From: an uncultured Erysipelotrichaceae bacterium
GTDB lineage: Bacteria > Bacillota_I > Bacilli_A > RF39 > UBA660
DNA length: 64,000 nt
Assembly (NCBI GenBank): GCA_902801525.1
Contig: CADCIN010000005.1
Location: forward strand, 1,132-65,131
Direction: 5' to 3'
In this document: positions 29,858 to 58,776 of the stretch, piece after piece
Position numbering within the stretch: position 1 is the first letter of the stretch
Layout: each line of letters starts with the position of its first letter
Program-made: the position numbers and the translations under genes
The notes under the pieces: model-generated
What the model saw: only the letters and a program-made list of their open reading frames with translations
What the model was told of the DNA's origin: nothing
The model's database searches: none

Positions 29858-30597
29858 AATCTTTTTATCTAACAGATGCTGGAAGAATTAGAGATCATAA
29901 TGAAGACAGCGTAATCATTACAAAGAATCGAAATAATGACTATTTAATGGCAATTGCTGATGGAATGGGAGGACATTCTGCAGGAGAAGTTGCATCATCA
30001 ATTGCAATTGGATATCTTGGTAAACATTTTAATGAAACATTTTTAAATATGAGTAAAGTAGATACAGTAAATTGGATTAGAGATGCTGTAAATGAAATCA
30101 ATACTTTAATATTTGATCACGAAAAAACTCATCCTGAAAGTAAAGGTATGGGAACAACACTTGTACTTGCCATACTTACAAAAGATTATTTATTATTTGG
30201 TAATGTAGGAGACTCAAGTGGATTTGTTATTAAAGATGATAAACTACATAAAGTTACATATGATCATACATTAGTAAACTTGCTAGTAAGTGCTGGAGAA
30301 TTAACAAAAGAAGAAGCAAGTAATCATCCTAAGAAAAATGTATTAATGAAAGCATTAGGTGCCTCACAAGAAGTAGATGTAGATATTTTTGATTGTGATA
30401 TGGATATCAGTCAAATACTTTTATCAAGCGATGGTCTAACAAATATGTTAACTAAGGAACAAATTGAAAAAGTTTTATTAGGTAGTGAAGATATAGAAGA
30501 AAAAGTAATTAAGTTAATTGGAAAAGCAAATAATAGGGGTGGAACAGATAATATATCGGTTGCTTATTTAATTCGTGAAGAAGAAGGTGACTTATAG
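29854..30597 (+). CDS. stp: PP2C-family Ser/Thr phosphatase Stp/PrpC
   Basis: TDAGRIRDHNED, IADGMGGH, GMGTT, SDGL, GGTDNIS. Confidence 0.95.
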   Translation: MKSFYLTDAGRIRDHNEDSVIITKNRNNDYLMAIADGMGGHSAGEVASSIAIGYLGKHFNETFLNMSKVDTVNWIRDAVNEINTLIFDHEKTHPESKGMGTTLVLAILTKDYLLFGNVGDSSGFVIKDDKLHKVTYDHTLVNLLVSAGELTKEEASNHPKKNVLMKALGASQEVDVDIFDCDMDISQILLSSDGLTNMLTKEQIEKVLLGSEDIEEKVIKLIGKANNRGGTDNISVAYLIREEEGDL

Positions 30598-52675: not shown

Positions 52676-52740
52676 TTTCTTGTGAAAACAGGAAATTTTT
52701 TTATTAAAAAATATAAAAAGATGCTATAATAACATTAGAG

Positions 52741-53685
52741 GTGTTATGCATGAAAAAATGTGTGATAATTAAGAATCCTGAAAGTGGAAAACTAAAAAAA
52801 TTACCATCCTCTGACGAGGTTTACGATACATTATTAAAATACGGCTATAATACAGAAATAAAGTATACAAAAAAGAAAAAAGATGCAACTGAGATTATAA
52901 AGTCACTTCCAGATGATATTGATCTTGTAATAAGTGCTGGGGGAGATGGAACTTTAAACGAAGTAGTTACTGGTAATGAACAAAGAAAAAAAAAATTAAC
53001 TATTGCAAATCTTCCAATGGGTACAACCAATGATGTGGGTAATATGTATGGATTCACAAGAAACAATTATAAAAATTTAGAAATTTTGTTAAAAGGTGTT
53101 AAAAAGAAAATAGATGTATGTTTCATAGATAAGACACCCTTTATTTATGTAGCATGTTTAGGTGACTATATAGATATGGCCTATAATACTCCAAGAGACT
53201 TAAAGAAAAAATATGGAAAAGTTGCATATGCGTTATATGGATTAAAACAAATAACCAATAAAATAAATAGATACAAAGTAAGATATAAAATAGATGGAAA
53301 AGAATATACTGGAGAATATTCATTTTTCTTTATTACTAACTCATCAAGAGTCGCAGGTGTAGATGATATATATTATGATGTAAAATTAAATGATAATATG
53401 TTTGAAGTAGCCTTCGCAGATTTAAAGACAAAAAAGGATATCTTAAGAACTTTCTTTCAAATAACAAATAATGATGTTAAAAGTGTAAAAAATATAACTT
53501 ATTATCAAACAGATAATTTAGAAATAGAATTTTTAGATAAACAAAAAACATCATGGTGTATTGATGGAGAAGAATATAAATCAGAGAATAATATTTTTAA
53601 ATTTAGTGTAAAACAAGATCAAAAGATGTTAATGCCAAAAGAAAATATAAATAAATTATTTAAAGAAAATGATGAAAAAAAATAA
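52741..53685 (+). CDS. Diacylglycerol kinase family lipid kinase (YegS/BmrU-like)
   Basis: NPESG, AGGDGTLNEV, PMGTTND, CIDGE. Confidence 0.9.
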   Translation: MLCMKKCVIIKNPESGKLKKLPSSDEVYDTLLKYGYNTEIKYTKKKKDATEIIKSLPDDIDLVISAGGDGTLNEVVTGNEQRKKKLTIANLPMGTTNDVGNMYGFTRNNYKNLEILLKGVKKKIDVCFIDKTPFIYVACLGDYIDMAYNTPRDLKKKYGKVAYALYGLKQITNKINRYKVRYKIDGKEYTGEYSFFFITNSSRVAGVDDIYYDVKLNDNMFEVAFADLKTKKDILRTFFQITNNDVKSVKNITYYQTDNLEIEFLDKQKTSWCIDGEEYKSENNIFKFSVKQDQKMLMPKENINKLFKENDEKK

Positions 53686-53700
53686 ATATTAATAATATAA

Positions 53701-53731
53701 ATAAGAAGTATATTTATACTTCTTATTTTTT
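53701..53731 (+). terminator. Intrinsic terminator
   Basis: ATAAGAAGTAT-attt-ATACTTCTTAT followed by a T tract. Confidence 0.8.
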
Positions 53732-53773
53732 GTCGAAAAATGACATGCGAATAAAATGTAAGGTTTTGTCGAA
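53731..53773 (+). promoter_or_regulatory. Two perfect Spo0A (0A) boxes upstream of spoIIAA
   Basis: TGTCGAA at 53731-53737 and 53767-53773 (consensus TGNCGAA), in the position expected for the spoIIA operon. Confidence 0.75.
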
Positions 53774-53823
53774 AAGGTATAAAAATAATAAAAAATATTC
53801 TATATTGTAAAAGAGGTGGAAAA

Positions 53824-54162
53824 ATGTTAAAACTCCAGAAACAAGTAAGTAAAGGAATAATGTTTATAAGATTATCGGGAGATTTAAATATTTCTTCTTT
53901 TAATAAGTTATCAGATGAAATAAATTATTTATTATATAATCAAGGTATTCATTATTATGTATTTAACTTTAAAGAAATAGATAAAATAGATCAAAATATA
54001 TTTCTTAAATTACAAAATAAATTAGTTGAAATATTTTTAAGTTGTGGAAAAGTAGTCATGTGTGGATTAAATGAAATAACAAAAAAACAAATAGGTAGTA
54101 CTAAAGATAGTTTATTTTATGTAAATAAAGAAAAAGAAGCATTTAATTATATTTGCTTATAA
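53824..54162 (+). CDS. spoIIAA: STAS-domain anti-anti-sigma factor, SpoIIAA-like (degenerate)
   Basis: IRLSGDL, FNFKEIDKID, VVMCGLN pattern; 0A boxes upstream; directly before sigF and spoVA. Confidence 0.75.
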   Translation: MLKLQKQVSKGIMFIRLSGDLNISSFNKLSDEINYLLYNQGIHYYVFNFKEIDKIDQNIFLKLQNKLVEIFLSCGKVVMCGLNEITKKQIGSTKDSLFYVNKEKEAFNYICL

Positions 54163-54172
54163 AGGAGATAAA

Positions 54173-54811
54173 ATGGATAATATATTAGAGTATGAAAAAT
54201 TAGTAAAAAGTATATGTAATAGGTATTGTAAGTATGATGATTTTGATGATTTATATCAAGTAGGTATGATTGGTCTAATAAATGCTAAAAAAAAATATAA
54301 AGAAAATAAAAATACAAAATTTTCAACATATGCTTATTATTATATATTAGGAGAAGTAACTAAATATATCAGAGAAAATAGACTAATAAAAATAAGTCCA
54401 GAAATAATTAAATTATCAAAAAAAATAGAAAAAGAAAAAAGTGTTATGATTCAAAAATTGGGTAGAGAACCATCCATACTGGAATTATCTTTATATTTAG
54501 GAATAAATGAAGAAAAAATTAAAGAGGTAGAAGAATCAAAAAAAATAATAAAAAGCTTAGATTACAGTGAAGAAGAAATATCTAATCTATATGATTATGT
54601 AAAAGTATATGATAAAAATATTAATGAAAATGTATTAGATTTAAAAAATGAATTAAAAAAATTATCTAAAGAAGAACAAAGTATAATAGTAGATAGATAT
54701 TTTGAAGAAATGTCTCAAAGGGAAACTAGTGAGAATTTAGGAATAAGTCAGCCACAAGTATCCAGAAAAGAAGAAAAAATATTAAAGAAATTAAAAACTA
54801 GATTAATCTAG
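54173..54811 (+). CDS. sigF: Sporulation sigma factor, SigF/SigG family (positionally SigF)
   Basis: DDLYQVGMIGL, KFSTYA...ILGEV, LGREPS, RYFEEMSQRETSENLGISQPQVSR. Confidence 0.8.
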   Translation: MDNILEYEKLVKSICNRYCKYDDFDDLYQVGMIGLINAKKKYKENKNTKFSTYAYYYILGEVTKYIRENRLIKISPEIIKLSKKIEKEKSVMIQKLGREPSILELSLYLGINEEKIKEVEESKKIIKSLDYSEEEISNLYDYVKVYDKNINENVLDLKNELKKLSKEEQSIIVDRYFEEMSQRETSENLGISQPQVSRKEEKILKKLKTRLI

Positions 54812-54850
54812 TTTTTTTGTATATAAAAATATAATTAGTAAACAATAATA

Positions 54851-55300
54851 ATGGTGAATAAAATGAAAAAATTAAAATATGAACAAATAGCAGCTAAATA
54901 TAGACCTATTGAAAATAAAAGAAAAAATATGTTGAAAGCCTTTATATCAGGAGGATTAATAGGAATGTTTGGTGAATTAATAATAGAAATTTTATGTATA
55001 AAGACTCATATATCAAGATCTGAAGCACAAACTTACATGATTATATTCTTTATATTTATATCATCACTATTTACTTCACTTGGTTTCTTTGACAAATTAG
55101 TAACCAAATATAAATGTGGCCTGTTAATTCCAATAACAGGATTTGCTCATTCTATGACCTCAGCTGCACTTGATTATAAAAGAGAAGGCTTAATATATGG
55201 GCTTGGTTCAAATATTTTCAAATTATCTGGTTCGGTAATTGTATATGGTGTATTATCAGCATGGTTTTTTGGAATGATTAGATACTTTATAGGAGGATAA
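54851..55300 (+). CDS. spoVAC: Stage V sporulation protein AC
   Basis: AFISGGLIG, GLLIPITGFAHSMTSAAL, FKLSGSVIVYG. Confidence 0.92.
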   Translation: MVNKMKKLKYEQIAAKYRPIENKRKNMLKAFISGGLIGMFGELIIEILCIKTHISRSEAQTYMIIFFIFISSLFTSLGFFDKLVTKYKCGLLIPITGFAHSMTSAALDYKREGLIYGLGSNIFKLSGSVIVYGVLSAWFFGMIRYFIGG

Positions 55301-55301
55301 T

Positions 55302-56288
55302 ATGAAATTTAAAAGTGTTTTTTTAAAAGAGACAACAACAATAGCTGGACCATATGAAAAAAAGGGACCATTATATAATTATTTTGATAAAACTTATAAT
55401 GATTTTTATTTTGGAGAAAAGTCATTTGAAAAAGCTGAAATAAAAATATCAAAAGAAAGTATAAATATGTTACAAAAGAAAATAGGACTTAATTATACTG
55501 ATATAGATCTAATTGTAGGAGGAGATTTATCAAATCAAATTGCAATTACTTCACTAGCATCTCAAAATAAAAGTAAAAGTTTTCTAGGAATATATGGTGC
55601 ATGCTCAACAAGTATAGAAGCAATCATAATAGCATCTTCATTTATAGATAGTAAAAAAATAAAAAATGCTATTGTTACAGTATCATCTCACAATTTGACG
55701 AGTGAAAAACAGTTTCGAAATCCTGTAGAGTATGGAGCACCAAGACCGGATACAGCAACATTTACTTCAACAGGTGCATCTTCTATTTTACTTACAAATG
55801 AAAAGACAGAAATAAAAATTGAATCTGCAACAATAGGAAAAATAATTGATTTTAATCAAAATGATGTAAATAATATGGGGAAAGTTATGGCACCAGCAGC
55901 AGCAGATACCATAAAAAAACACTTAGATGAAACAAAAAGAAAACCTGATTATTATGATTTGATTTTAACAGGAGATTTAGGAATATATGGAAGAGAAATA
56001 TTAATTGAATATATGTTAAAAGAATATAATATAGATTTATCAAATAATTATAATGATTGTGGTACTATGCTATATGATTTAAATAACCAAAAAGAAGTAA
56101 AAGCGGGGGGAAGTGGACCAGTATGTAGTGCATTAGTAAATTTCTCATATATATATCAAATGCTAAGAAAGAAAAAAATGAAAAGAGTATTATTGGTTGC
56201 AACAGGTGCACTTTTCTCACCTACAACTCTAAATCAAAAAGAAAATATTTTATCAATTGCACATGCAATTAGTTTGGAGGCTCTATAA
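55302..56288 (+). CDS. spoVAD: Stage V sporulation protein AD
   Basis: GPYEKKGPL, GDLSNQ, YGACST, EKQFRNPVEYG, MAPAA, TGDLG, GGSG, ATGALFSP. Confidence 0.95.
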   Translation: MKFKSVFLKETTTIAGPYEKKGPLYNYFDKTYNDFYFGEKSFEKAEIKISKESINMLQKKIGLNYTDIDLIVGGDLSNQIAITSLASQNKSKSFLGIYGACSTSIEAIIIASSFIDSKKIKNAIVTVSSHNLTSEKQFRNPVEYGAPRPDTATFTSTGASSILLTNEKTEIKIESATIGKIIDFNQNDVNNMGKVMAPAAADTIKKHLDETKRKPDYYDLILTGDLGIYGREILIEYMLKEYNIDLSNNYNDCGTMLYDLNNQKEVKAGGSGPVCSALVNFSYIYQMLRKKKMKRVLLVATGALFSPTTLNQKENILSIAHAISLEAL

Positions 56289-56638
56289 TGTTATTAGTAA
56301 ATTCATTTTTATTTTGCGGATTACTTTGTTTGATATCTCAAATAATATTAGATAATACAAAACTAACTCCTGGACATATAACAAGTATATTAGTAGTAAT
56401 AGGAGCTTTTCTAGATTCATTTAGTTTGTATGATATAATAATAAAAAAAGTAGGAGGAGGAGCACTTCTACCAATTACAAGTTTTGGACACTCGCTAATA
56501 CATGGAGCACTTGCTAAAACAAGTTCATATGGATTACTTGGGATTTTAATGGGAATGTTTGATTTAACTGCATCAGGTATCACAAGTGCAATCATATTTG
56601 CAGCAATATTTTCATTAATATTCAATCCAAAAGACTAA
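56288..56638 (+). CDS. spoVAE: Stage V sporulation protein AE (SpoVAEb-type)
   Basis: KLTPGHI, GALLPITSFGHSL, FDLTASGI. Confidence 0.9.
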   Translation: MLLVNSFLFCGLLCLISQIILDNTKLTPGHITSILVVIGAFLDSFSLYDIIIKKVGGGALLPITSFGHSLIHGALAKTSSYGLLGILMGMFDLTASGITSAIIFAAIFSLIFNPKD

Positions 56639-56675
56639 GAATATATCAATTTTTAATAGAAGAAAACATAAAAAG

Positions 56676-56703
56676 AATTAGACACAGATGTGTCTAATTT
56701 TAA
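56676..56703 (+). terminator. Hairpin after spoVAE
   Basis: AATTAGACAC-agat-GTGTCTAATT plus T tract. Confidence 0.75.
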
Positions 56704-56851: not shown

Positions 56852-58776
56852 ATGGAAAGAGAAGATTTAGAAGAATATAAAAAGAAATTAACAAAATTAA
56901 AAGAAGAAGAAAAAAATTAAGAGATGAACATCAAAGAAAATTTGCAACTGGAGAAATTCAAGGTCCTCCTGTCGGATATTCTAGTATTGATAAAACATGG
57001 TTAAAACACTACGATGCTGAAAAACTAAAACAAGATATTCCACAAATGTCTATTTTTCAATATTTAGTTGAATCATCAAAAAATAATCTTGATAAAACCG
57101 CAATTGATATAAGAATGAGTTTTAATAATTTTGATAAAAGCATAAGAACAATTACATATAGAGAATTCTTAGAAGAAACAGTTACTCTTGCTTGTGGCTT
57201 AAAAACATATGGAATTGACGAGAATCAAATGCTTTTAGAAATGCTTCCAAATTTAATTGAAAGTAGAGAAGCAATATATGGACAGAATGCCAATGGAACA
57301 ACAGTTTATCCAATATCACCAATGATTCCAGCTTTTAAATTAGAAAAAATTGTTGAAAAAAACAGTATTAAAAATGTAATAATGTTTGGAGCATTTTATG
57401 ATAAATTTAATGACCAATTAAAAAATGAAAAAATTGAACATATTTTTTATTTAGATGGATTGGAATCATTTAATCCATTACTAAAAAAAGCTGTAAAATT
57501 AAAAGATAAAGAAGTTAAATTCAAAATACCAAATGATCCGAGAATTGTAACATGGGAAACTTTATTGAATAAAGGAAAAGAATTTAGAAAAAAACATAAT
57601 ATTAGAACATATAAAGATTTTAATAGTTATTATGAAAAAAATTATATTGCAGCAGTTGTAGGTACAAGTGGAACAACAGGTGTGCCTAAAGGTGCATGTC
57701 TATCAGATACTGCAATAAATGCAAGTGATTTTAGTGAGAGAATTCCAGAACCATTTAAGCCTGGTGAAGTTAATTTAGATGTACTTATTCAGTCAATATC
57801 ATATGGTATTGGTATAATGCACCATACAATGTCTGGTGGATTAAATAATATTGTAATTCCTGAATTGGTAACTGACAAACTACCAATGTTATTGAAAAAA
57901 TTTAAACCAGAAAATTTCTCTGGCGGACCTATTCACTATGAAAATATAATAAAAAGTAAAGAATTTAAAAATTAAGAATTGGTTAAACCTAAGAATTATT
58001 TATGTGGAGGAGCATCTCTATCTAAAAAAACAGAGCAAGAACTAAATGGAAATATTGATGAAAATTATATTGAACCAAAAGAAGGAGAATCAAAAGTATT
58101 TGTTCGACAAGGACTTGGTGCAACAGAAAATGTAGGTACCGGTATTTTTACAACTAGAGGATCATATAAATTGGGAAGTGTGGGAATTCCTATTGCATTA
58201 TCAAATTGTGCAATATTTAAAACTGGTACTGACGAAGAAGTCCAAACTGGAGAAATCGGTGAAATTTGCATGTCTGGACCAACAATGATGGAATATTATT
58301 TAAATAATTCAGAAGAAACAAATAAAGTTTTGAAAAGACATTCAGATGGAACAACATGGTTACATCTTGGTGATGAAGGATACATGGATAAAGACGGAAA
58401 TGTATTTATGTTAGATAGATATAAAAATATTTTTATGAGGAATGGATTCAATGTTCATCCTAAAAAAATAGCAGAAACTTTATTAAAATCAGACGATGTA
58501 GAAAATTGTTATGTAACAGGTGTAAAACATCCAGTAGAAATGAGTGTTCCTGTAGCATTTGTAGTATTAAAAGATGGTGTAAATGAAGAAAAAGCCATAA
58601 AAGAATTAAATGAATTATGTTATTCAAATCTTGATGAATATTAAGTTCCATATGACTATAAATTTGTAAAAGAACTTCCTTTAAACTTAGATGGAAAAGT
58701 AGATGTAAAAAAATTACTTGAAGATAATGATGTAGATTATTCTAATTCCAAAGAGAGCAAAATGAATTTAAGATAA
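56852..58776 (+). pseudogene. Class I adenylate-forming (AMP-binding, acyl-CoA synthetase-like) enzyme, disrupted
   Basis: GTSGTTGVPKG, GLGATE, HLGD..Y.D, DRYK motifs. One frameshift in an A-run near 56910 and in-frame TAA stops at 57973-57975 and 58642-58644; the frame continues to TAA 58774-58776. Confidence 0.88.

What the first reader, a model, noticed from the sequence alone, without database searches (positions are those of the whole stretch)
53731..54811. spoIIA operon without the anti-sigma kinase spoIIAB, and a SpoIIAA lacking its phospho-serine
Seen: two perfect 0A boxes, then a STAS gene, 10 bp, then sigF, then spoVAC/D/E, with no room for spoIIAB. Where B. subtilis SpoIIAA has FMDSSGLG (Ser58), this protein has KIDQNIFL. 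The sigma also begins directly at region 2.1. Established: spoIIAA-spoIIAB-sigF order and AB-mediated phosphorylation of AA are the conserved switch confining sigma-F activity to the forespore. Inference: this lineage may control sigma-F by a different, reduced mechanism, or is losing canonical sporulation control while keeping spoVA, cotE and sleC.
Basis: partly seen in the sequence, partly recalled or inferred. Interest (0 to 1): 0.68.

Follow-up and report, generated by a model that had tools for sequence, protein, structure and literature searches.

The report
Sigma-F operon without its kinase switch
This uncultured small-genome cattle-gut bacterium, like every sampled member of its order, keeps the first sporulation sigma factor and its small partner protein. 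It has lost both enzymes (SpoIIAB and SpoIIE) and the phospho-serine of the textbook switch, so sigma-F must be controlled in some other, still unknown way.

Summary
Two TGTCGAA Spo0A boxes precede a 112-aa STAS gene. Ten bases later comes a 212-aa sigma gene, then spoVAC/D/E.

- **Sigma identity:** the sigma is a true SigF orthologue, not SigG or SigB.
- **STAS identity:** the STAS protein descends from SpoIIAA by profile, fold and synteny. It lacks the DSSG phospho-serine motif and the second SGL motif.
- **Missing enzymes in this genome:** no SpoIIAB and no SpoIIE-type phosphatase were found.
- **Missing enzymes in the order:** SpoIIAB is in 0 of 401 genomes (145 genera). A SpoIIE-type domain is in 3 of 401; the two examined are an unrelated fusion protein away from sigF.
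- **Retained genes:** 368 of 401 keep SigF/SigG-type sigmas and 309 of 401 keep the STAS gene, next to sigF wherever I looked. Spo0A is present in this genome; SpoIIR in this genome and all 37 sporulation-type relatives; SigE and SigK in this genome; SigG in most relatives.
- **Sister lineages:** seven spore-type genomes of other families in the class, one of only 0.9 Mb, have the canonical spoIIAA-spoIIAB-sigF-spoVA operon plus SpoIIE.
- **Selection:** the STAS gene is under purifying selection (dN/dS 0.15 within the genus) but evolves faster than canonical SpoIIAA.

How sigma-F is now gated is unknown. A direct, kinase-free STAS role is my leading guess. One 2024 paper notes the gene absence in order RF39. 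Earlier notes of this scan report the same feature in other genomes.

The parts
53731..53773 (+). Two Spo0A boxes (TGTCGAA at 53731-53737 and 53767-53773) in the 138-bp promoter region of the operon
   Evidence: 6 matches in 64 kb against 1.9 expected, two of them here; both are conserved in same-genus genome G001; the box at about -60 is kept in 13 of 17 relatives of the order and 4 of 7 canonical operons (20 boxes per 4.8 kb upstream against 29 per 131 kb elsewhere).
53824..54162 (+). SpoIIAA-derived STAS protein (112 aa) without the phospho-serine motif (KIDQNIFL in place of FMDSSGLG) and without the second SGL motif
   Evidence: - Families: Pfam STAS 26.8 bits; TIGR02886 only 24.3 bits against a cut-off of 114.75.
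- Closest solved relatives: the profile of 15 orthologues hits SpoIIAA 1AUZ and 1TH8 best, E about 1e-18.
- Fold: AF2 model pLDDT 90.9; Foldseek top hit SpoIIAA 1TIL_B, TM 0.82.
- Motifs: alignments.
- Selection: dN/dS 0.15 against G001.
54163..54172 (+). 10-bp spacer (AGGAGATAAA, containing the ribosome-binding site) where canonical operons carry the 138-149-aa spoIIAB gene
   Evidence: In relatives of the order the spacing runs from -38 to +36 bp. Seven sister-family loci have a spoIIAB ORF here.
54173..54811 (+). sigF orthologue (212 aa), about 25-30 residues shorter at the N-terminus than B. subtilis/Geobacillus sigma-F
   Evidence: - Families: TIGR02980 163 bits; SigF model 152 bits above SigG at 112 and 101.
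- Tree: clade of the order's SigF 99/95, sister to the canonical SigF of G042 95/90; SigG forms a separate clade 100/100.
- Best PDB hit: 1L0O chain C (sigma-F), 9e-29.
54851..56638 (+). spoVAC (54851-55300), spoVAD (55302-56288) and spoVAE (56288-56638), downstream as in the canonical sister-family operons
   Evidence: SpoVAC 150.8 bits, SpoVAD 409 bits, SpoVAE 131.1 bits. Synteny is shown.

Best explanation
**Shown.** The window carries the orthologue of the spoIIA operon of a small-genome order of uncultured gut Bacilli, probably GTDB order RF39.
- In the ancestor of that order, the anti-sigma kinase gene spoIIAB was removed from between spoIIAA and sigF.
- The phosphatase gene spoIIE was lost too.
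- The SpoIIAA descendant lost the phosphorylated serine and both motifs that contact SpoIIAB.
- The rest of the cascade stays in place: Spo0A boxes in front of the operon, sigma-F, SpoIIR, SpoIIGA-like/sigma-E, sigma-K, spoVA, and sigma-G in most relatives.

**Inferred.**
- Sigma-F is still made at the onset of sporulation under Spo0A and still signals to the mother cell through SpoIIR.
- Its post-translational gating cannot be the SpoIIE/SpoIIAA/SpoIIAB phospho-switch.
- The STAS protein has an intact fold, is under purifying selection and stays tightly coupled to sigF in about 84% of sigma-bearing genomes. It most likely keeps a role in sigma-F control that needs no kinase, for example direct stoichiometric binding to sigma-F. 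I put about 0.35 on that last step alone.
For: **Absence of SpoIIAB**
- Own genome: best TIGR01925 hit is 29.7 bits, and all hits lie in 400-720-aa histidine-kinase ORFs.
- A profile of 7 sister-family SpoIIAB proteins, run against the six-frame translation with filters off, finds only the same kinases.
- 0 of 38 close relatives and 0 of 401 genomes in 145 genera of the order.

**Absence of SpoIIE**
- No PF07228 hit in the own genome at E<=10.
- Full-length SpoIIE occurs only in the 7 genomes that also have SpoIIAB.
- 3 of 401 in the order hit the domain; the two examined are PP2C+HATPase fusion proteins away from sigF.

**Orthology of the operon**
- The seven sister-family loci carry STAS, spoIIAB (138-149 aa) and sigF, six of them followed by spoVAC/D/E within the fetched stretch. 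Loci of this order carry STAS and sigF, mostly followed by spoVAC/D/E.
- The SigF tree supports orthology.

**Ser loss**
- Ser at the S58-equivalent position in 11 of 120 homologues.

**Retention and selection**
- STAS is found in 309 of 401 genomes; SigF/G-type sigma in 368 of 401.
- dN/dS 0.15 for STAS, similar to spoVAD at 0.17.

**Cascade kept**
- SpoIIR is present in the own genome and in all 37 sporulation-type relatives of the order among the 60 sampled.
- Spo0A; SigE, SigK and SigH-like; 0A boxes.

**Not a by-product of small genome size**
- The 0.9-Mb genome G042 keeps the full canonical module.

**Not an artefact**
- Four other public assemblies are colinear across the region.
Against: - No member of the order is cultured, so spore formation itself is unproven.
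- The STAS gene is not universal. It is absent in G018 and G022, carries a stop in G009, and is degenerate in G015 and G020. About 16% of sigma-bearing genomes lack a detectable copy.
- STAS evolves about twice as fast relative to SpoVAD as canonical SpoIIAA does.
- A mirror-tree test gave no specific STAS-SigF co-evolution signal: r 0.38, partial 0.23.
- In same-genus genome G001, sigF is split by a 40-bp insertion.
- The own assembly shows no sigG.
- A non-homologous anti-sigma factor elsewhere cannot be excluded with these tools.
- No complex model could be run.
Confidence: 0.6

Rival explanations
1. Sigma-F is not gated post-translationally at all in this order. Its timing and compartment specificity come from transcription (Spo0A~P), chromosome position or downstream checkpoints. 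The STAS protein is kept for a function unrelated to sigma-F, or merely hitch-hikes in the operon.
For: - STAS has been lost or is decaying in several genera that keep sigF, SpoIIR and spoVA.
- It diverges fast.
- There is no co-evolution signal with SigF.
- Both motifs that contact the canonical partner are gone.
Against: - dN/dS is 0.15 within the genus.
- An intact, confidently predicted fold.
- The gene is retained directly in front of sigF in 119 of 145 genera.
- In B. subtilis, unrestrained sigma-F is deleterious (established knowledge, not tested here).
Confidence: 0.22
2. An unrecognised, non-homologous anti-sigma-F factor exists elsewhere in these genomes, and the remodelled STAS protein is its phosphorylation-independent antagonist. 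The partner-switch logic would then be kept with new parts.
For: - STAS antagonists that work without phosphorylation by their anti-sigma are known: M. tuberculosis RsfA/RsfB with UsfX (own knowledge). PDB 8IH8 appears among the fold matches.
- The STAS surface around the old phospho-site has been remodelled rather than destroyed.
Against: - No candidate was found.
- No HATPase_c_2 protein in the genome.
- No Gin/Fin-like small zinc proteins in a scan of small ORFs.
- No extra conserved ORF in the operon.
Confidence: 0.12
3. The lineage no longer makes endospores, and the remaining sporulation genes are decaying or have been re-used for something else.
For: - Very small, host-associated genomes.
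- Some members of the order have lost the sporulation sigma factors altogether (33 of 401).
- G001 has a disrupted sigF.
- The own assembly lacks sigG.
Against: - Hundreds of genomes keep SigF, SigG, SpoIIR, spoVAC/D/E and STAS as intact ORFs.
- Purifying selection acts on all operon genes.
- Spo0A boxes are conserved.
- PMC10868615 also predicts sporulation for RF39.
Confidence: 0.05
4. Artefact: spoIIAB and spoIIE exist but were missed through assembly gaps or extreme divergence.
For: The genome is a 51-contig draft estimated 94.9% complete.
Against: - 0 of 401 genomes have SpoIIAB.
- The STAS-sigF junction is continuous in four other public assemblies.
- Sensitive profile searches of all six frames are negative.
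- The same models find both genes easily in seven sister-family genomes.
Confidence: 0.01

Closest known systems
spoIIA operon (spoIIAA-spoIIAB-sigF) with SpoIIE of Bacillus, Geobacillus and Clostridia: the sigma-F partner switch (PDB 1TH8/1TIL, 1L0O)
   Same: - An orthologous locus with Spo0A boxes, a SpoIIAA-fold protein, sigma-F and spoVA downstream.
- SpoIIR, a SpoIIGA-like gene, sigma-E and sigma-K are kept in this genome, and sigma-G in most relatives.
   Different: - No SpoIIAB kinase/anti-sigma and no SpoIIE phosphatase.
- No phospho-serine; the DSSG and SGL motifs are lost.
- STAS and sigF are directly abutting.
- Sigma-F is about 25-30 residues shorter at the N-terminus.
RF39 gene-content survey (Microb Genom 2024, PMC10868615)
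   Same: [quoted passage not shown]
   Different: A one-sentence gene-presence statement. It does not cover the retained non-phosphorylatable SpoIIAA descendant, the collapsed operon, selection, or sigma identity.
Mycobacterium tuberculosis SigF regulation (UsfX with RsfA/RsfB; PDB 8IH8)
   Same: STAS-type antagonists that act without being phosphorylated by their anti-sigma partner (own knowledge). The fold is similar.
   Different: Mycobacteria still have an anti-sigma factor (UsfX); none is detectable here. The context is also not sporulation.
Canonical small-genome sister lineage in the same class (genome G042, 0.9 Mb)
   Same: - A similar tiny genome.
- The same operon context.
- Its SigF is the closest canonical relative of this order's SigF.
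   Different: It keeps spoIIAB, SpoIIE (409 bits) and the DSSG motif.

Membership tests
SpoIIAA (anti-sigma-F antagonist, TIGR02886) | STAS/SpoIIAA fold | tested here: met
   AF2 model pLDDT 90.9. Foldseek top hits are SpoIIAA 1TIL_B and 1TH8_B, TM 0.82. The profile's best PDB hit is 1AUZ at 4.5e-18.
SpoIIAA (anti-sigma-F antagonist, TIGR02886) | First gene of the sigF operon (orthologous position) | tested here: met
   Same position as spoIIAA in seven canonical sister-family loci.
SpoIIAA (anti-sigma-F antagonist, TIGR02886) | Phosphorylatable Ser in the DSSG motif (Ser58 of B. subtilis) | tested here: not met
   The window has Gln at this position. In 17 genera of the order the residue is variable. 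Ser occurs in 11 of 120 homologues.
SpoIIAA (anti-sigma-F antagonist, TIGR02886) | Score above the curated family cut-off | tested here: not met
   24.3 bits against a cut-off of 114.75.
SpoIIAA (anti-sigma-F antagonist, TIGR02886) | Cognate SpoIIAB partner encoded in the genome | tested here: not met
Sporulation sigma factor SigF (TIGR02885) | Groups with SigF rather than SigG or SigB in a phylogeny | tested here: met
   The order's SigF forms a clade (99/95), sister to the canonical SigF of G042 (95/90). SigG forms a separate clade (100/100). No SigB sequence was in the tree; SigB scores lower by HMM (104 bits).
Sporulation sigma factor SigF (TIGR02885) | Sigma-70 regions 2, 3 and 4 and the operon context spoIIAA...sigF-spoVA | tested here: met
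Sporulation sigma factor SigF (TIGR02885) | Score above the curated equivalog cut-off | tested here: not met
   152.4 bits against a cut-off of 321.45. Canonical SigF proteins of the sister families are also divergent, with long branches.
Sporulation sigma factor SigF (TIGR02885) | Forespore-specific activity and control of spoIIR/spoIIQ-type promoters | not testable with these tools
   SpoIIR is present, but promoter use and compartment are experimental questions.
SpoIIE-SpoIIAA-SpoIIAB partner-switching module | GHKL kinase/anti-sigma SpoIIAB | tested here: not met
   0 of 401 genomes of the order.
SpoIIE-SpoIIAA-SpoIIAB partner-switching module | PP2C phosphatase SpoIIE | tested here: not met
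   No hit in the own genome and 0 of 38 relatives. 3 of 401 in the order hit the domain; the two examined are unrelated fusion proteins.
SpoIIE-SpoIIAA-SpoIIAB partner-switching module | Spo0A-dependent promoter (0A boxes) in front of the operon | tested here: met
   By sequence only. Spo0A is present.

The most novel reading that the evidence does not exclude
In a whole order of gut Bacilli, the four-protein phospho-switch (SpoIIE, SpoIIAA, SpoIIAB, sigma-F) has collapsed into a two-protein, phosphorylation-free module. In it the SpoIIAA-derived STAS protein binds sigma-F directly, as inhibitor or chaperone. If so, forespore-specific activation is achieved without SpoIIAB or SpoIIE, and a STAS domain acts as a direct sigma-factor regulator.
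Probability: 0.3. Interest if true: 0.8.

Novelty: new variant of a known kind. Interest (0 to 1): 0.6.

Why it matters
[quoted passage not shown] 2022 preprint, 10.1101/2022.02.25.481979). They are the textbook explanation for how the first cell-specific sigma factor is switched on after asymmetric division.

A large order that keeps the rest of the sigma cascade but lacks the kinase, the phosphatase and the phospho-site is a natural experiment on two questions:
- Is that switch really needed for compartment-specific sigma-F activity?
- What can replace it?

It also shows a STAS protein that survives the loss of its only known partner. That makes a new STAS function directly testable by expression in B. 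subtilis or E. coli.

The value is tempered in three ways:
- The gene absence is already mentioned in one paper (PMC10868615).
- The same feature has been noted repeatedly in this scan.
- The organisms are uncultured.

Tried and rejected
**Tests that gave no signal**
1. Mirror-tree co-evolution of STAS and SigF across 12 genera: r 0.38, partial 0.23, no better than the spoVA controls.
2. Search for a divergent SpoIIAB with a custom profile against all six frames: only histidine kinases.
3. Scan of small ORFs for Gin/CsfB- or Fin-like zinc proteins as alternative anti-sigma factors: only ribosomal proteins and generic zinc ribbons.
4. Expression evidence: one run labelled metatranscriptomic holds the whole 4-kb stretch as a single contig, intergenic DNA included, so DNA carry-over cannot be excluded.

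**Readings considered and rejected**
5. That the short sigma N-terminus is a consequence of SpoIIAB loss. Rejected as specific, because the canonical G041 and G056 SigF proteins are equally short.
6. That the own genome truly has a three-sigma cascade without SigG. Not accepted: sigG and the three genes that flank it in G001 are all missing together. About 6% of the order's genomes likewise show a single hit, which fits draft-genome incompleteness.
7. That the three PF07228 hits in the order are relict SpoIIE. Rejected for the two examined: they are PP2C+HATPase_c_2 fusion proteins, not at sigF.

8. A model of a STAS-sigma-F complex; the structure tool folds single chains only.

**Not checked**

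Full report
**What is in the window**

The region 53731-56638 reads as follows:
- Two exact TGTCGAA heptamers, at 53731 and 53767.
- A 112-aa ORF at 53824-54162.
- A 10-bp spacer carrying a ribosome-binding site.
- A 212-aa ORF at 54173-54811.
- After 39 bp, three overlapping ORFs.

Family searches name these genes:
- The first ORF is a STAS domain protein: Pfam 26.8 bits, but only 24.3 bits on the SpoIIAA equivalog, whose cut-off is 114.75.
- The second is a SigB/F/G-type sigma factor: 163 bits on TIGR02980, with SigF at 152 bits above SigG at 112 and 101 and SigB at 104.
- The three downstream genes are SpoVAC, SpoVAD and SpoVAE.

The heptamer occurs 6 times in the 64-kb window against 1.9 expected, and two of the six lie in this 138-bp promoter region.

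Contigs from four other public runs (bovine gut or gut samples) run colinearly through 52700-56700 with 1-6 substitutions and no indels. The tight STAS-sigma junction is therefore real DNA.

**The organism**

The window lies in a 1.26-Mb, 25.4% GC, 51-contig draft genome estimated 94.9% complete. Earlier notes of this scan call the lineage RF39. That fits the gene pattern published for RF39 in PMC10868615. I did not test the taxonomic label itself.

**Is SpoIIAB or SpoIIE anywhere?**

In the own genome:
- The SpoIIAB model scores at most 29.7 bits, and only inside 400-720-aa histidine-kinase ORFs.
- HATPase_c_2 does not reach its cut-off.
- A profile I built from seven sister-family SpoIIAB proteins, run with filters off against every six-frame fragment, finds only the same kinases.
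- The SpoIIE phosphatase domain has no hit at E<=10.

Across 60 relatives, real SpoIIAB (152-190 bits) and full-length SpoIIE occur in exactly the same seven genomes. All seven belong to other families of the class. The count is 0 of 38 genomes in the window's family and order.

At order level:
- SpoIIAB is found in 0 of 401 genomes from 145 genera.
- The SpoIIE domain is found in 3 of 401.
- The two strong hits are 620-630-aa PP2C+HATPase_c_2 fusion proteins. In one genome the fusion sits beside a STAS-APH kinase fusion. This is a different, rare module that is not located at sigF.

**Is the locus orthologous to spoIIA?**

Yes. I fetched the sigF loci of 20 relatives in the order and of the seven canonical genomes.
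- All seven canonical loci read STAS, a 138-149-aa SpoIIAB gene, then sigF. In six of them spoVAC/D/E follows within the fetched stretch.
- Loci of this order read STAS directly followed by sigF, mostly then spoVAC/D/E. The spacing runs from -38 to +36 bp.
- Exceptions: metK is inserted between the two genes in G002, and there is no STAS in G018 or G022.

**Which sigma is it?**

Most relatives carry two SigF/G-type genes: a conserved one of about 258 aa and a more divergent one of about 220 aa. A maximum-likelihood tree resolves them:
- The window's protein sits in a clade of the short sigmas (support 99/95).
- The sister of that clade is the canonical, SpoIIAB-linked SigF of genome G042 (95/90).
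- All the long sigmas form a separate SigG clade (100/100).

Its best solved relative is the sigma-F chain of the SpoIIAB complex 1L0O, at 9e-29. In that alignment residue 3 matches residue 32, so the N-terminus really is short. Two canonical relatives (G041, G056) are equally short, so this is not a signature of SpoIIAB loss.

**The STAS protein**

- A profile of 15 orthologues hits SpoIIAA of B. subtilis and Geobacillus best (4.5e-18 and 8e-18).
- An AlphaFold model is confident (pLDDT 90.9, pTM 0.83).
- The model superposes best on SpoIIAA from the SpoIIAB complexes (TM 0.82).

In alignment, all canonical proteins read F(M/I)DSSG(I/L)G and later SGL. Proteins of this order have neither motif. 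The window reads KIDQNIFL.

Among 120 metagenomic homologues the Ser58-equivalent position is spread over many residues: D 19, K 19, Y 12, S 11, Q 10, M 9, E 9, and others. The only well-conserved hydroxyl residue is the helix-1 Thr/Ser, which canonical SpoIIAA shares. So there is no substitute phospho-acceptor specific to the clade.

**Is the STAS gene alive?**

- Between the window and the same-genus genome G001 it is 77% identical, with dN/dS 0.15. That is similar to spoVAD (0.17) and spoVAE (0.15).
- It is detectable in 309 of 401 order genomes (119 of 145 genera). SigF/G-type sigmas are found in 368 of 401. Retention among sigma-bearing genomes is therefore about 84%.
- Wherever I compared coordinates, it lies adjacent to sigF.

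Signs of weaker constraint:
- It is lost in G018 and G022, carries a stop in G009, and is degenerate in G015 and G020.
- Its divergence relative to SpoVAD is about twice that of canonical SpoIIAA: ratio 3.0 against 1.45.

The protein is functional, but under changed or weaker constraint.

**The rest of the cascade**

- Spo0A is present (Spo0A_C 134.6 bits).
- SigE, with a SpoIIGA-like membrane gene upstream, SigK and a SigH-like sigma are present.
- SpoIIR is present in the own genome and in all 37 sporulation-type relatives of the order among the 60 sampled.
- The promoter-proximal 0A box is conserved at about -60 in 13 of 17 loci of the order and in 4 of 7 canonical loci.
- The own assembly lacks sigG together with the three genes that flank it in G001. 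About 6% of order genomes likewise show a single SigF/G hit. I read this as draft-genome incompleteness, but it is unresolved.

**Interpretation**

Shown: an order-wide, coherent loss of the kinase, the phosphatase and the phospho-site. The sigma factor, its Spo0A-type promoter, its downstream signal SpoIIR and a selected SpoIIAA descendant are all retained.

Genome reduction alone does not explain the loss. The 0.9-Mb genome G042 keeps the whole canonical module.

Inferred: sigma-F is gated by something other than the phospho partner switch. I favour a kinase-independent role of the STAS protein in sigma-F control, possibly by direct binding. That step has no direct support:
- A mirror-tree test was uninformative.
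- No complex model could be run.

The rivals cannot be excluded. These are no post-translational gating with an unrelated STAS role, an unrecognised anti-sigma partner, and a lineage that no longer sporulates.

**Relation to what is known**

- Galperin et al. [quoted passage not shown] - I found no paper that describes the retained non-phosphorylatable SpoIIAA descendant or the collapsed operon.
- Earlier notes of this scan describe the same feature in at least nine other genomes. They agree with my results but are not independent evidence.

**Verdict**

A real, clade-wide variant of a textbook developmental switch, and partly known. Observation confirmed; first reading supported; mechanism open.

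Noticed in passing
L068:2496-3186 (genome G001, same genus): sigF carries a 40-bp insertion with an in-frame TGA at the region 2.2/2.3 boundary, which splits it into 54-aa and 177-aa ORFs. This is either a pseudogene or an assembly error. STAS and spoVA next to it are intact.
   Followed up: partly
whole genome G000 (window's assembly): No sigG gene is present, and none of the three genes that flank sigG in same-genus G001. About 6% of genomes in the order also show only one SigF/G-type hit. This is probably an assembly gap, but a real loss is not excluded.
   Followed up: partly
L082:2382-4280 (G400) and L083:1261-4350 (G271): Two of 401 order genomes encode a 620-630-aa protein that fuses a SpoIIE-type PP2C domain to an RsbW/SpoIIAB-type HATPase_c_2 domain. 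In G271 it sits next to a STAS-APH kinase fusion. This is a rare, different partner-switch-like module away from sigF.
   Followed up: partly
window 57046-58644: An AMP-binding (acyl-CoA synthetase-like) gene is interrupted by a single in-frame TAA at 57973-57975. The two halves continue the same Pfam profile (positions 277 and 292).
   Followed up: partly
relatives G002:C43, G025:C6:22238, G023:C26, G034:C59, G024:C13, G015:C14: Short extra STAS-like ORFs (72-88 aa, matching only the first two thirds or less of the profile) lie elsewhere in several genomes of the order.
   Followed up: no
window 54173-54811, residues about 196-200: In region 4.2, SigF of this order reads SR(K/N/Q)E. Canonical SigF and SigG read SR(L/M/I)E. 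This is a clade-specific polar replacement of a normally hydrophobic residue.
   Followed up: no
G000:C29:202-1734: A second SigA/RpoD-like sigma factor of 510 aa, with a long and unusual N-terminal extension, exists besides the ordinary 363-aa SigA.
   Followed up: no
window 29899-30078 (inside a 251-aa open frame; frame ends not determined): A PrpC/Stp-like PP2C phosphatase gene of about 251 aa is the only weak SpoIIE-model hit in this genome (14 bits). It is an ordinary Ser/Thr phosphatase, not SpoIIE.
   Followed up: partly
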